Positions 56,863 through 59,547 of a stretch of DNA of 64,000 nt are shown piece by piece (the first letter of the stretch is position 1; each line of letters begins with the position of its first letter). A program made the translations under genes and the position numbers. The notes under the pieces were generated by a model. That model was not told the origin of the DNA. It saw nothing but the letters and a program-made list of their open reading frames with translations, and ran no database searches. The stretch is from positions 1 to 64,000 of the IMG/VR virus record IMGVR_UViG_3300043449_000492. One strand, given 5' to 3'. The DNA comes from a virus.

Positions 56863-59547
56863 ATGTTCATTATGCCACCCACAATGCCTATCAAAGTTGT
56901 GGAGCTTTCAACAAATACAAACAATGTTGACTTATATGCAGAATCAGGAAGTCCAGATTTTGCTATAGGAGTGGTGGCTAATGTCTCTGCAACAATCGGA
57001 AGCACATCAACATCAGCAGCTTTGAGAACTAATACAGGCTGGGCTGATGGTTCTTGGCTTTATATTAACAATCTAGGTACGATCAATGGTGGTACTGGCG
57101 CACCTGGTGCAACTGGTTCAACTGGTATCCCTGGTGCAACAGGTGGCACAGGACTTCCAGGAACACCTGGCAATAATGGAACACCCGGCAATACAGGATC
57201 ATCTGGTATCCCTGGTGCAACTGGTGGCACAGGTGCTGCAGGTATCCCTGGTGCAACTGGAAGTACCGGTATCCCTGGTGCAACTGGTGGTACTGGTGCT
57301 GCAGGTATCCCTGGTGCAAGAGGAACTCCAGGTATTCCTGGTGCAACTGGTGGCACAGGTGCTGCAGGTATCCCTGGTGCAACTGGAAGTACCGGTATCC
57401 CTGGTGCAACTGGTGGTACTGGTGCTGCAGGTATCCCTGGTGCAACAGGTTCTCCTGGTACTCCAGGAGCAAGGGGAACCCCAGGTATTCCAGGTGCAAG
57501 AGGATCTACAGGATTAAACGGAATTCCCGGAAATACAGGATCATCTGGTATCCCTGGTGCTGTCGGCATCGGCGGCCTGGGAGGTCAAGGAGGATCAGCA
57601 GCAGGACCACCAACACCATATCTAGGACTTCCTGGGAGAACAGGTCTTGCTGGCAGTCCGGGAACTACTGGAGGATCGGGAACACCCGGAACTAACGCTA
57701 CTCCTGGTGGAACTGGACTTCCGGGCACTACTGGTGGCACAGGACTTCCAGGAGCAACAGGCGGTACTGGACTAGCAGGAACACCTGGTGCAACAGGTGG
57801 CACAGGAATCCCTGGCGCAACTGGTGGAACAGGACTAGCAGGAACACCTGGTGCAACTGGTGGTACTGGACTACCTGGCACTACAGGTGGCACAGGATTA
57901 AACGGAACGCCTGGTGCAACAGGTGGAACAGGACTTCCAGGAGCAACTGGTGGAACAGGATTAGCTGGAACACCAGGAGCAACAGGTGGCACAGGAATCC
58001 CAGGTGCAACAGGCGGAACGGGACTACCTGGTAATACAGGAATCCCTGGCGCAACTGGTGGAACAGGATTAGCTGGAACACCAGGAGCAACAGGTGGCAC
58101 AGGAATCCCAGGAGCAACAGGTGGTGTATCATTACAAGTTGATGCTGTAACCAACTTAATCGTTCTTGTCAAAAATGTAACAGGCACTCTAACAGGCGGC
58201 ACAGGCGGTCTCGGTGGAACCGGCGGTCTCGGAGGCATTGGTGGTCCAGGTGGTATCGGTGGTCAAGGCGGTATCGCAGGTTCTGGAGGTTTAGCAGGAT
58301 TAGGCGGACTTGGTGGCATAGGTGGCATCGGAGGTATTGGTGGTATCGGTGGTCTAGCTGGCATTGGTGGCCCTGGTGGTATTGGTGGCCCCGGTGGCAT
58401 CGGTGGCATCGGCGGTGCAGCTGGACTTGGAGGAATTGGCGGCGCAGCCGGTCTTGGTGGCATCGGAGGTATTGGTGGTCTAGGCGGAATTGGCGGCACA
58501 GGCGGTATTGGTGGCCCTGGTGGTATTGGCGGAATTGGTGGTCTAGCAGGCATCGGAGGCCAAGGAGGCATTGGTGGCCCTGGTGGTATCGGTGGTGCAG
58601 CTGGCCCTGGCGGTCCCGGCGGCATCGGCGGCGCAGCTGGACCTGGTGGTCCAGGTGGCATCGGTGGACTTGGTGGTGGTGGAGGAGGAGGAGGCGGTGG
58701 CGCCTCCACGCAGCAGCTGGCAGGATCAGGTGGTGGCGGAGGTGCGATCTTGGGCGTCGGCGGCGCCCGTGGCGGCCCGCCATCTGCACTTATTAGCCAA
58801 GGTTTCGCAGGAATTCCGGGCACATCGACGGGCGGCGCCGGAGGTCCAGGATTTATTTTTCAACCTTCACCGCTTATAAGAGGCGGTCCCGGAGGTTCAG
58901 GCGGCAATTTAGGAACTCCTGGTTCAGCAGGAATTCCTGGTTCTGGTCCAGGTGTGACAGGTACTACAGGAGGGAATGCAGGACTAGCCGGTAGTTCAGG
59001 TCTTACGGGCCCTACAGGACCATCGGGACTAGCAGGAACACCTGGTGCAACAGGACCATCAGGAATTGCAGGCGCAACAGGATTAGTGTCGGGAACACCG
59101 GGAGCAAGAGGACCTACAGGTACAGCTGGAACACCAGGAGCAACAGGACTAGCAGGAACACCGGGAGCAAGAGGACCTACAGGTACAGCCGGAACACCAG
59201 GAGCAACAGGATCATCAGGAATCGCAGGCGCAACAGGACCATCGGGACTAGCTGGAACACCAGGAGCAACAGGACTAGCTGGAACACCGGGCGCAAGAGG
59301 ACCTTCAGGACTAGCTGGAACACCAGGAGCAACAGGACTAGCAGGAACACCGGGAGCAAGAGGACCTTCAGGACTAGCAGGCCTATCAGGAACACCAGGA
59401 GCAACAGGACCATCGGGACTAGCTGGAACACCAGGAGCAACAGGACTAGCTGGAACACCGGGCGTCAGAGGTAATGCCATCACAGGTAATACAAATATAA
59501 CTTGGATCGGAGGCGACCTCGGAACAATCACAGGACCTGTGGCATAG
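56863..59547 (+). CDS. gp38-like polyglycine-II adhesin with four extended Gly-X-X helices
   Basis: [42 protein letters not shown]-end [20 protein letters not shown] match T-even gp38 layout. Confidence 0.75.
57211..57445 (+). repeat. 109-bp exact repeat with 126-bp period inside adhesin
   Basis: 57211-57319 = 57337-57445. Confidence 0.8.

What the first reader, a model, noticed from the sequence alone, without database searches (positions are those of the whole stretch)
56863..59547. Telescoped gp38-type adhesin: four glycine helices extended to matching length, implying a ~50 nm single-chain PGII stalk
Seen: this 894-aa protein looks collagen-like, but its non-repetitive parts follow the T-even gp38 adhesin layout (beta-rung motifs [10 protein letters not shown] and GVSLQV...[10 protein letters not shown], a compact Gly-rich head around 58700-58970, and C-terminal [20 protein letters not shown]). 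Four Gly-triplet tracts have nearly equal length: A aa76-246 (171), B aa255-422 (168), C aa445-613 (169), D aa704-872 (169). Their repeat vocabularies differ (GIP/GAT; GLP/GGT; GGI/GGP; GTP/GPS). A and B are joined by a short turn (AGPPTPYL); C and D flank the head. Known: gp38 has a PGII sandwich attached to a beta-helix by strands that leave and return. Inference: the four connecting helices were lengthened independently but kept in register, giving an antiparallel monomeric PGII bundle about 169 x 0.31 nm = ~52 nm long that projects the binding loops outward, perhaps through a capsule or S-layer. Tract C is mostly Gly-Gly-X, as expected for the most buried helix. A 126-bp-period exact repeat suggests ongoing length change.
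Basis: partly seen in the sequence, partly recalled or inferred. Interest (0 to 1): 0.9.

Follow-up and report, generated by a model that had tools for sequence, protein, structure and literature searches.

The report
Long-stalked gp38-type phage tail-fibre adhesin
This collagen-looking phage gene most likely encodes a single-chain relative of the T-even gp38 receptor-binding adhesin whose two glycine loops have grown into four equally long strands, probably a thin stalk of up to about 50 nm, which would be a new way for a virus to build a long reach.

Summary
ORF 56863-59547 (894 aa) has four Gly-X-Y tracts of 57, 56, 56 and 56 triplets, plus the quoted motifs and a 109-nt exact repeat at a 126-nt offset.

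- **Length co-variation:** I found about 30 loci of a previously unlinked family in viral and metagenome contigs. The four tracts match within each protein (13/13/14/12, 20/20/20/20, 21/21/21/20, 29/29/28/31, 57/56/56/56) and differ fourfold between proteins (r ≥ 0.99; 0 of 100,000 permutations).
- **gp38 similarity:** An AlphaFold2 monomer model of a 391-aa member is confident for the base and the proximal part of all four tracts. Its only strong PDB matches are the gp38 adhesins of S16 and PP01 (Z 13.8, next best 8.0). With the tracts removed, the family profile aligns collinearly with a gp38 profile (P 4e-5; shuffled controls about 0.06).

Glycine content rises A,D < B < C, as in known polyproline-II bundles. 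The distal turn and head are hypervariable.

The gene always follows a fibre gene with a conserved C-terminal domain and precedes a small ORF and a prolyl-hydroxylase-like oxygenase.

Not shown: monomer state, rod straightness and hydroxylation. Verdict: a new, extreme variant of gp38; a trimeric collagen fibre is unlikely.

The parts
56863..59547 (+). Whole gene: 894-aa gp38-type adhesin with four long Gly-X-Y tracts (P0001)
   Evidence: ORF and translation. Family membership.
56863..57087 (+). N-terminal beta domain (aa 1-75), the first rungs of the beta-helix base; ends in the YI.N...I.G rung motif
   Evidence: 39-48% identical across the family. pLDDT 92-96 in the homologue model. Aligns to S16 gp38 residues about 40-114.
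57088..57600 (+). Tract A (aa 76-246): 57 uninterrupted G-X-Y triplets, the outgoing strand of the first excursion
   Evidence: Gly fraction 0.39.
57601..57624 (+). A-B turn (aa 247-254), inferred to be the distal hairpin turn
   Evidence: This turn is hypervariable in the family, with 0-7% non-Gly identity between distant members.
57625..58128 (+). Tract B (aa 255-422): 56 triplets with one Gly->Ala, the returning strand
58129..58197 (+). B-C linker (aa 423-445): two beta rungs of the base, ending in the ..N....LTGG rung motif
   Evidence: Conserved in the family. pLDDT 89-96 in the model. Aligns to the gp38 rung that precedes its poly-Gly helix 3.
58198..58701 (+). Tract C (aa 446-613): 56 triplets of G-X-[G/A] ending in poly-Gly, the outgoing and most Gly-rich strand
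   Evidence: Gly fraction 0.64, the highest of the four in all 11 members.
58702..58971 (+). Head (aa 614-703): Gly-rich segments alternating with variable segments; inferred receptor-binding tip
   Evidence: Non-Gly identity is 2-4% between distant members against 41-68% in the base. Not confidently modelled.
58972..59478 (+). Tract D (aa 704-872): 13 + 43 triplets with one extra residue, the returning strand
59479..59547 (+). C-terminal rung (aa 873-894) and stop codon; closes the beta-helix base
   Evidence: Conserved in the family. Aligns to the C-terminus of gp38.
55593..56849 (+). Upstream fibre gene (418 aa). Its last ~110-130 aa (nt 56457-56846) are the conserved putative docking domain
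   Evidence: A homologous C-terminal domain lies directly upstream of the family gene in nearly all loci, on fibre bodies of 339-1655 aa. Complex prediction gave weak support.
59564..59917 (+). Conserved 117-aa ORF of unknown function, a candidate assembly factor
   Evidence: A homologue lies downstream of the family gene in the loci with enough flank. No family or PDB match that means anything.
59927..60544 (+). 2OG-Fe(II) oxygenase, prolyl-4-hydroxylase-type fold family
   Evidence: PF13640 E 3.5e-14. HxD at 119 and RxS at 192. Weak PDB hits to PKHD-type hydroxylases. Present next to the family gene in every locus with enough flank, and next to the variant protein in L022.

Best explanation
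The gene encodes a remote structural relative of the T2/S16-type gp38 tail-fibre adhesin.

**Architecture.** A small beta-helix base is assembled from three separate pieces of one chain: the N-terminal 75 aa, the 23-aa B-C linker and the 22-aa C-terminus. As in gp38, two loop excursions leave and re-enter this base. In gp38 they are 18 and 77 residues long and form a compact polyglycine-II (PGII) sandwich.

In this protein each leg of the two excursions is a Gly-X-Y tract of about 168 residues:
- A goes out, a turn follows, and B comes back.
- C goes out, the head follows, and D comes back.

The four legs are inferred to run side by side as an intrachain antiparallel polyproline-II/polyglycine-II bundle. 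C is the most buried strand, then B, with A and D peripheral. At 0.31 nm per residue this gives a stalk of up to about 52 nm. The stalk would carry the hypervariable A-B turn and the Gly-rich head at its far end, where the receptor would be bound.

**Attachment and partners.** The base is inferred to sit on the conserved C-terminal domain of the fibre encoded immediately upstream. The conserved 117-aa ORF and the P4H-like 2OG oxygenase downstream are inferred to assist assembly and to hydroxylate X-Pro-Gly sites.

**Status of each step.** Shown: tract anatomy, the family, length co-variation, the glycine gradient and synteny. Predicted: the gp38-like fold and side-by-side packing in a short homologue. 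Inferred: monomer state, straightness and length of the rod in this protein, the docking mode, hydroxylation and the receptor-binding role.
For: **1. Length matching within proteins, with a fourfold range between them.** Triplet counts A/B/C/D:
- window protein: 57/56/56/56
- L033: 29/29/28/31
- L020: 21/21/21/20
- L026: 20/20/20/20
- L039: 20/18/20/19
- L052: 19/18/19/20
- L032: 13/13/14/12
- L044: 14/13/14/13

Pairwise r on log length is 0.989-0.997. The mean within-protein CV is 0.034, and 0 of 100,000 permutations reach a value that low. With the four length classes only, the exact count is 1 of 13,824.

**2. Monomer model.** The AF2 monomer model of the 391-aa member P0155, built with a 12-sequence alignment, has pLDDT 92-96 in the base. 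About 25-30 of the 39 residues in each of the four tracts are at 80-97, falling symmetrically towards the turn and head.

**3. Fold match.**
- Exhaustive VIA-align against 48,161 chains: 6f45_D (S16 gp38) Z 13.8, rmsd 2.5 A over 154 of 248 residues; 9v85_C (PP01 gp38) Z 13.8. The next best match is Z 8.0.
- Springtail antifreeze PPII bundles superpose on residues drawn from tract A to tract D: 3bog Z 6.1, 56 aa at 2.2 A, model residues 94..350; 7jjv Z 4.4.

**4. Profile comparison after tract removal.** P 3.8e-5 (local) and 1.9e-6 (global), collinear over 167-171 columns. The 31 controls are at or below score 19, against 38.4 for the real comparison.

**5. Predicted-structure and language-model neighbours.** BFVD and ESM-Atlas neighbours are GP38 adhesins.

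**6. Topology.** It is identical to the published gp38 topology (PMC6851490).

**7. Glycine gradient.** Gly fractions are A 0.37-0.45, D 0.33-0.48, B 0.42-0.67 and C 0.58-0.74 in 11 members. This fits the published rule that the Gly content of a PPII helix rises with its number of neighbouring helices (bioRxiv 10.1101/2023.11.25.568672).

**8. Shared super-period.** All four tracts share a 21-aa super-period despite their different sequences.

**9. Variability pattern.** The turn and head are hypervariable while the base is conserved.

**10. Gene order.** It follows the g37-g38 pattern: the gene starts 1-34 nt after a fibre gene that has a conserved C-terminal domain.

**11. Docking prediction.** Three copies of the fibre C-terminus plus one adhesin scored ipSAE 0.59 (runs 0.71, 0.59, 0.38). 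The best control scored 0.01, partner pLDDT was at least 69, and the runs shared at least 51% of contacts. The tool rates this as weak support. The mark was reached by 58 of 80 solved complexes and 2 of 110 mismatched pairs, but a score at or below 0.60 is more often wrong than right unless the guess was already likely.
Against: - **No coordinates.** I could not inspect the model, so straight helices running the full tract length are inferred from pLDDT and superpositions only.
- **The model is of a short homologue.** It has 13 triplets per tract. The window protein folded alone gave pLDDT 26.6.
- **The window protein is the least ideal member for a PGII bundle.** Tracts A, B and D are only 33-42% Gly and carry Ile, Leu, Pro and Thr. 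They look like ordinary bacterial or phage collagen: Pfam Collagen E 1.7e-17, and PHROG hits to collagen-like tail fibres.
- **The hydroxylase neighbour is equally what a true collagen would want.**
- **No sequence-level gp38 hit.** There is no Pfam GP38 hit and no PDB sequence hit to gp38. hhalign with the unedited alignment is not significant (P 0.026).
- **The attachment domain is missing.** The family lacks gp38's N-terminal Trp attachment domain.
- **Periodicity does not settle the geometry.** Continuous G-X-Y periodicity does not exclude turns; from my own reading of its sequence, springtail AFP keeps its triplet register through turns. A more compact lattice therefore remains possible.
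- **One possible counter-example.** Contig L047 has 10 fewer triplets in A than its near-twin L046, with the same B and C. This may be an assembly collapse.
- **Assemblies of repeats are error-prone.** All homologues come from metagenome assemblies.
Confidence: 0.62

Rival explanations
1. It is an ordinary trimeric collagen-like tail fibre. Three chains would form four consecutive triple-helical segments separated by short non-collagen knots, giving a linear fibre of roughly 190 nm. The neighbouring oxygenase would supply hydroxyproline.
For: Pfam Collagen E 1.7e-17. PHROG collagen-like tail-fibre families. 34,774 collagen-like hits in the representative search, and only collagens and BclA by PDB sequence search. 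Pro sits in the Y position before Gly in tracts A, B and D. A P4H-type oxygenase lies two genes downstream. A family member is annotated 'Collagen triple helix repeat' in BFVD/UniProt.
Against: - A linear fibre gives no reason for four segments to be equal, or to change together from 13 to 56 triplets.
- Tract C, and tract B in relatives, is G-X-G with 58-74% Gly, which from general knowledge of collagen stability is a poor triple-helix sequence.
- There is no recognisable trimerisation domain.
- The non-repeat parts fold in a monomer model into one asymmetric gp38-like beta-helix built from the N-terminus, the middle and the C-terminus of the same chain. That is incompatible with a linear extended chain.
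Confidence: 0.1
2. It has a gp38-like base, but the tracts do not form one straight four-stranded rod. Each would fold back repeatedly, for example once per 21-residue super-period, into a thicker and shorter PGII lattice. Alternatively they are largely flexible PPII tethers that pair only near the base.
For: - Known PGII domains use short helices, with GRMs of about 6-8 residues in S16 gp38.
- From my own reading of its sequence, springtail AFP keeps its G-X-X register through turns.
- Model confidence decays with distance from the base.
- A 21-aa period exists in every tract.
- Tracts A, B and D of the window protein are Gly-poor for a tight lattice.
Against: A compact lattice or loose tethers do not require all four legs to be equal, yet they are equal in every length class. 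The hypervariable turn and head behave like a common distal face. The confident part of the model already spans about 25-30 residues per tract, several times the length of a gp38 PGII helix.
Confidence: 0.18
3. It is a fold-back oligomer. Three (or more) chains each make the A/B and C/D hairpins, and equivalent tracts from different chains form collagen triple helices, giving four parallel/antiparallel triple helices bundled together.
For: This would explain both the collagen-like composition and the need for equal lengths. The fibre it may sit on is presumably trimeric.
Against: From my own knowledge, there is no precedent for triple helices reversing through 5-8-residue turns. The gp38-type base is an asymmetric monomer on a trimer in the solved complex. 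The monomer model is already confident for all four tracts packed on one base. This model does not explain the glycine gradient A,D < B < C.
Confidence: 0.05

Closest known systems
gp38 receptor-recognising adhesin of T2/T6/S16/PP01-type Straboviridae (Pfam PF05268; PDB 6F45, 9V85)
   Same: - Encoded directly after a fibre gene.
- Predicted beta-helix base with two loop excursions made of Gly-rich left-handed helices. The first is a two-helix hairpin. The second starts with a poly-Gly helix and carries variable segments.
- Best and only strong structural match: Z 13.8, 154 residues at 2.5 A.
- Conserved base and hypervariable distal parts.
   Different: - No Pfam GP38 hit.
- Lacks the N-terminal alpha-helical attachment domain with its three tryptophans.
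- The excursions are 2 x 39 to 2 x 171 residues long instead of 18 and 77.
- Regular collagen-type G-X-Y sequence with Pro and Thr.
- A different kind of upstream fibre tip domain.
- Linked to a 2OG oxygenase and a 117-aa ORF.
- Found in uncultured aquatic T4-like phages whose nearest listed matches are cyanophages and pelagiphage HTVC008M.
Springtail (snow flea) antifreeze proteins, monomeric antiparallel PPII-helix bundles (PDB 2PNE/3BOG, 7JJV)
   Same: - Gly every third residue.
- Successive helices antiparallel within one chain.
- Peripheral helices Gly-poor and inner helices Gly-rich.
- Tract residues of the model superpose on them (Z 6.1 and 4.4).
   Different: - From my own knowledge, the antifreeze helices are about 10-13 residues long, in 6-9-helix two-layer bundles.
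- Here there would be four helices of 39-171 residues on a beta-helix base.
- No ice-binding role is implied.
Bacterial and phage collagen-like proteins (Pfam PF01391; for example Bacillus BclA, PDB 1WCK, and collagen-like phage tail fibres of several PHROGs)
   Same: Long uninterrupted G-X-Y tracts rich in Thr and Pro. It is found as a Collagen hit, and a family member is annotated that way in public databases.
   Different: - Those proteins are trimers with free variation of tract length and a trimerisation domain.
- This family has four length-locked tracts.
- Its tracts B and C are G-X-G type.
- Its non-repeat parts form a single-chain gp38-like base.

Membership tests
gp38 adhesin (PF05268, T2/S16 type) | Match to the Pfam GP38 model, or a direct sequence match to solved gp38 | tested here: not met
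   No GP38 hit for the whole protein at E<=1, for the four non-repeat pieces at E<=10, or for any of 12 family members at E<=1. No gp38 in the PDB sequence or profile searches. hhalign of the unedited alignment against S16 gp38 gave E 0.33.
gp38 adhesin (PF05268, T2/S16 type) | Remote profile-profile similarity once the tracts are removed | tested here: met
   The de-telescoped family profile against a 7-sequence gp38 alignment gave probability 70.8% and P 3.8e-5 (local, 167 columns), and probability 79% and P 1.9e-6 (global). Thirty shuffled controls and one reversed control scored at most 19, against 38.4. The significance is moderate, and the editing was my own.
gp38 adhesin (PF05268, T2/S16 type) | Fold: central beta-helix with two loop excursions forming a PGII-helix assembly | tested here: met
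   The AF2 model of family member P0155 against 6f45_D gave Z 13.8, rmsd 2.5 A, 154 of 248 residues. Against 9v85 it gave Z 13.8-14.1. The next best match is Z 8.0. This is a predicted structure of a homologue, not of the window protein itself.
gp38 adhesin (PF05268, T2/S16 type) | N-terminal alpha-helical attachment domain with three conserved Trp that plug into the gp37 trimer | tested here: not met
   The profile and structure alignments start at S16 gp38 residues 26-40. The first 75 aa of the family are modelled mainly as beta strands with one 4-residue helix. They have no invariant tryptophan.
gp38 adhesin (PF05268, T2/S16 type) | Gene immediately downstream of the distal fibre gene; one adhesin capping a trimeric fibre tip | tested here: inconclusive
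   The gene order is met in nearly all loci. For binding there is only weak support from complex prediction: 0.59 against a best control of 0.01. Stoichiometry is not testable here.
gp38 adhesin (PF05268, T2/S16 type) | Glycine-rich motifs alternating with hypervariable segments at the distal face | tested here: inconclusive
   Poly-Gly runs flank variable segments in the head. The head and turn are hypervariable. However, the head is modelled at pLDDT below 50.
Collagen triple-helix proteins (PF01391) | Long uninterrupted Gly-X-Y repeats and a Pfam Collagen hit | tested here: met
Collagen triple-helix proteins (PF01391) | Homotrimeric parallel triple helix nucleated by a trimerisation domain | not testable with these tools
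   No trimerisation domain was recognised. The indirect evidence points against a trimer: length locking, the G-X-G tracts, and a single-chain base. Needs SEC-MALS, CD and EM.
Glycine-rich PPII/PGII helix bundles (springtail AFP type) | Successive antiparallel left-handed helices in one chain, with Gly content rising with the number of neighbours | tested here: met
   The Gly gradient A,D < B < C holds in 11 members, in line with the rule. The model superposes on 3bog and 7jjv. The geometry rests on a predicted model.
Prolyl-4-hydroxylase-type 2OG-Fe(II) oxygenase (PF13640), for the neighbour gene 59927-60544 | Domain hit above the curated cut-off, with the HxD...H iron triad and RxS 2OG site | tested here: met
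   PF13640 54 bits against a cut-off of 27. HxD at 119 and RxS at 192. A His in the conserved stretch aligns to PKHD hydroxylase 3dkq. The substrate was not tested.

The most novel reading that the evidence does not exclude
A single polypeptide builds a four-stranded antiparallel polyproline-II/polyglycine-II rod about 1-2 nm thick and up to about 52 nm long. Known natural PPII bundles have helices of only about 6-13 residues.

The rod length would be set in quanta of about 7 triplets (2, 3, 4 and 8 units in different phages), with all four strands changing together. A phage-encoded prolyl hydroxylase would stabilise it. The stalk length would be tuned to the thickness of the host's outer layer so that the gp38-like head can reach its receptor.
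Probability: 0.35. Interest if true: 0.9.

Novelty: new variant of a known kind. Interest (0 to 1): 0.8.

Why it matters
- **Structure.** If the stalk is real it would be by far the longest PPII/PGII-helix bundle known, and a third way to build a long thin protein rod from Gly-X-Y sequence, alongside coiled coils and the collagen triple helix. It would also be monomeric, so length is encoded four times in one gene and must be changed in step. The family offers a natural length series (about 12, 19, 27 and 52 nm) for testing how such rods fold, and how concerted repeat expansion is selected.
- **Annotation.** It shows that 'collagen triple helix repeat' labels on phage proteins can hide gp38-type adhesins.
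- **Phage biology.** It extends the gp38 adhesin principle from enterobacterial T-even phages to uncultured aquatic T4-like phages. It also links the adhesin to a conserved P4H-like oxygenase, which gives a testable role for one of the many unexplained 2OG oxygenases in marine and freshwater phage genomes.
- **Protein design.** A rigid, thin, genetically length-programmable spacer would be useful.

Tried and rejected
- **Searches against the phage collection.** Megablast and tblastn of the region, the protein and a neighbour found nothing, because of low-complexity filtering or divergence.
- **Word-indexed protein search** with the N-terminal domain of P0001 and of P0153 found no hits. The family was later found in contig collections, so these blanks reflect the index, not absence.
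- **Exact-motif scan** with the window N-domain alone in viral contigs found nothing. It worked only after a second family member allowed a degenerate pattern.
- **Upstream fibre as bait** gave loci that share only its C-terminal domain, with no related Gly protein in the first set.
- **Whole-protein HMMER** against 1.84 billion representatives was swamped by generic collagen-like proteins. None of the best 150 shares the non-repeat parts.
- **AF2 on the 894-aa protein without an alignment** was uninformative: pLDDT 26.6.
- **Sequence-level tests for gp38** (Pfam, PDB, unedited hhalign) were negative.
- **Fibritin (wac) analogue.** I considered this because the gene sits just before gp13-gp15. 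I dropped it because of the gp38-like fold and the fibre-adhesin gene pairing.
- **Orf117** has no meaningful structural or family match; the interferon-gamma hits are taken as spurious.
- **P0002 and the L022 protein P0154** are only marginally similar to gp38 or to the family by hhalign (P 0.005-0.29), so I do not file them with the family.
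Full report
**Context.** The window is the first 64 kb of a 169,069-bp IMG/VR virus record with terminal repeats. It is a T4-like myovirus. Baseplate wedge genes of the gp6, gp7 and gp8 types lie at 26-38 kb, and gp13, gp14 and gp15 homologues start at 61164. The gp6 protein is under 40% identical to its best matches in the phage collection, among them cyanophages and pelagiphage HTVC008M. Between gp8 and gp13 lies a run of fibre genes. The finding, ORF 56863-59547, is the last large gene of that run.

- The 894-aa product has four Gly-X-Y tracts of 57, 56, 56 and 56 triplets. Tract B contains one Gly->Ala triplet and tract D one extra residue.
- The tracts are separated by an 8-residue turn, a 23-residue beta-type linker and a 90-residue Gly-rich head. 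They are flanked by a 75-residue N-terminal domain and a 22-residue C-terminal piece.
- The vocabularies differ as described. In tract C the invariant Gly is the second of each 'GG', so the tract reads G-X-[G/A].
- The 126-nt repeat is real: 109 nt exact.
- I add that all four tracts have the same 63-nt (21-aa, 7-triplet) super-period, so each is 8 x 7 triplets.
- Standard annotation sees only collagen: Pfam PF01391 and PHROG collagen-like tail fibres. The non-repeat pieces hit nothing in Pfam or the PDB, even at E 10.

**Finding the family.** Direct searches failed, or drowned in generic collagen-like proteins whose tract lengths are heterogeneous. The break came from the neighbour gene. Baiting viral contigs with the downstream 2OG oxygenase gave two loci with a Gly-rich protein next to the oxygenase. 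One of these, P0153 in L020, is a clear homologue: the N-domain is 43% identical and the linker and C-terminus are conserved. A two-sequence pattern, and then a nine-sequence pattern, retrieved 20 viral and 17 metagenome loci. This gave about a dozen distinct complete proteins of 391-582 aa, all with the same nine-part architecture.

**The four tract lengths co-vary.**

| Member | A/B/C/D (triplets) |
|---|---|
| L032 | 13/13/14/12 |
| L044 | 14/13/14/13 |
| L052 | 19/18/19/20 |
| L029 | about 19/18/20/19 |
| L026 | 20/20/20/20 |
| L039 | 20/18/20/19 |
| L053 | about 20/22/20/20 |
| L020 | 21/21/21/20 |
| L033 | 29/29/28/31 |
| window | 57/56/56/56 |

- Pairwise correlations of log length are 0.989-0.997.
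- The mean within-protein coefficient of variation is 0.034, and no permutation out of 100,000 reaches that value.
- Counting only the four length classes, the observed arrangement is the single best of 13,824.
- Each change of class needs separate indels in four separate repeat arrays with different sequences. This is evidence for selection on equal length, which is what a structure with the four legs side by side requires.
- The classes lie near 2, 3, 4 and 8 times seven triplets. With so few classes this is only a hint.
- Caveats: the homologues come from metagenome assemblies, and some boundaries were curated by hand. One short contig, L047, has 10 fewer triplets in A than its near-twin L046.

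**The non-repeat parts are gp38-like.**
- An AlphaFold2 monomer model of the shortest member (P0155, 391 aa, 12-sequence alignment A3) is confident for the base (pLDDT 89-97). It is also confident for the proximal 25-30 residues of each of the four tracts (80-97). Confidence falls symmetrically towards the turn and head, which are below 50.
- Foldseek ranks PP01 and S16 gp38 first, and snow-flea antifreeze next among the meaningful hits.
- VIA-align gives Z 14.1 and 13.8 at rmsd 2.4-2.5 A over 137-154 residues.
- An exhaustive alignment to 48,161 representative chains leaves the two gp38 structures alone at Z 13.8. Generic beta-helices follow at 8.0 and below.
- Viral and ESM-Atlas predicted structures, and language-model features, point to GP38 clusters as well.
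- 6F45 was released in August 2018. To my knowledge that is after the training cut-off of these AlphaFold2 weights, so the match is unlikely to be memorised.
- At sequence level the unedited family profile does not match S16 gp38.
Probability is 71-79%, with P 3.8e-5 local and 1.9e-6 global. Thirty column-shuffled controls and one reversed control reach only P about 0.06.
- According to the crystallographers' account, S16 gp38 is a monomer with three parts. These are an N-terminal attachment domain, a five-ring beta-helix, and two turns of 18 and 77 residues. The two turns extend along the fibre axis to form PGII helices 1-2 and 3-10 (PMC6851490).
- The family has the same topology: rung, A-turn-B, rungs, C-polyGly-head-D, rung. 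It lacks the attachment domain.

**Evidence that the legs pack as a PPII/PGII bundle.**
- Tract residues of the model superpose on the springtail antifreeze bundles: 3bog, 56 residues at 2.2 A spanning model residues 94-350; 7jjv, 61 residues.
- Glycine content is ordered A,D < B < C in all 11 members. A survey of natural PPII bundles reports that the Gly content of a helix rises with its number of neighbours, and that terminal helices are Gly-poor. This fits a contact order in which B and C are inner strands.
- The base is conserved in non-Gly positions (41-68% in the N-domain). The A-B turn (0-7%) and the head (2-4%) are hypervariable. Even in a close pair the figures are 92% in the base against 22% in the turn and 53% in the head. 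That is what one expects if the turn and head lie together at the receptor-facing end, as gp38's distal loops do.
- In L046 and L047 the gene is split within the head, with a spacer of about 100 nt. A fold held together by lateral strand contacts could tolerate such a split. The contigs end too early to be sure.

**Surroundings.**
- In nearly all loci the gene starts 1-34 nt after a fibre gene. The fibre bodies vary from 339 to 1655 aa, but their last ~110-130 residues are conserved. This is the g37-g38 arrangement.
- A complex prediction used three fibre C-termini plus one adhesin from locus L032. It scored 0.59 (runs 0.71, 0.59, 0.38) against a best control of 0.01. Partner pLDDT was at least 69, and the runs shared at least 51% of contacts.
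- The tool calls this weak support. The mark was reached by 58 of 80 solved complexes and 2 of 110 mismatches, but scores at or below 0.60 are more often wrong than right unless the guess was already likely.
- Downstream, a 117-aa ORF and a PF13640 2OG-Fe(II) oxygenase with an intact HxD/RxS signature follow in every locus with enough flank.
- The oxygenase also sits next to a different four-tract Gly protein in the more distant locus L022 (about 58/63/63/67 triplets, arranged as two beta-tract-head-tract units).
- Some oxygenase homologues elsewhere have no such neighbour. Hydroxylation of X-Pro-Gly sites is therefore a reasonable but untested inference.

**Weighing.**
- A linear trimeric collagen fibre explains the composition and the hydroxylase. 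It does not explain the length locking, the G-X-G tracts, the glycine gradient, or a base assembled from the N-terminus, middle and C-terminus of one chain.
- A gp38-like base with a more compact or floppy glycine region remains possible, especially for this protein. Its tracts A, B and D are the least glycine-rich in the family, and it could not be modelled itself.
- I put the gp38-type kinship at about 0.85 and intrachain side-by-side packing of the four tracts at about 0.7. A straight rod near 50 nm in this protein is at about 0.4-0.5. The stated explanation as a whole is at 0.62.
- The scan's other notes on this genome are first-reader notes on the same stretch, the oxygenase and fibre docking. 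They were leads that I partly tested.

Noticed in passing
window 59927-60544 (and 59564-59917): A P4H-type 2OG-Fe(II) oxygenase and a 117-aa ORF form a conserved module with the adhesin gene in every related locus that has enough flank. The oxygenase also neighbours a different four-tract Gly protein in L022. This gives a candidate substrate for one of the unexplained phage 2OG oxygenases.
   Followed up: partly
window 52685-53635: A second very Gly-rich, non-collagen protein (316 aa, P0002) starts exactly at the stop of the 1011-aa fibre gene. It may be another fibre-plus-adhesin pair. Its hhalign similarity to gp38 (P 0.039) and to the family (P 0.012) is only marginal, and it has no Pfam hit.
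   Followed up: partly
L022 6278-9145: A 956-aa protein (P0154) is built as two units of beta strand - tract - head - tract. Its four tracts have about 58, 63, 63 and 67 triplets. It lies one gene upstream of an oxygenase homologue and may be a second lineage of length-matched Gly-tract adhesins.
   Followed up: partly
L046 4001-5038 and L047 1529-2497: The family gene is split inside the head: a stop after the poly-Gly run, an AT-rich spacer of about 100 nt, then a new ORF that continues the head. L047 also lacks 10 triplets of tract A relative to L046. This is either an assembly collapse or the only length mismatch seen.
   Followed up: partly
window 57088-59478: All four tracts share a 21-aa (63-nt) super-period. 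Family tract lengths cluster near 14, 21, 28 and 56 triplets, that is 2, 3, 4 and 8 x 7, which suggests quantised length changes.
   Followed up: partly
window 56457-56846, and upstream ORFs in L020-L059: A conserved C-terminal domain of about 110 aa caps fibre bodies of very different length (339-1655 aa), and is followed directly by the adhesin gene wherever it was found here. It looks like a portable docking module.
   Followed up: partly
window 61917-62591: A homing-endonuclease-like ORF (phrog_314) sits between the gp13 and gp14 homologues. In related loci gp13 and gp14 are adjacent, so this is probably a mobile insertion.
   Followed up: no
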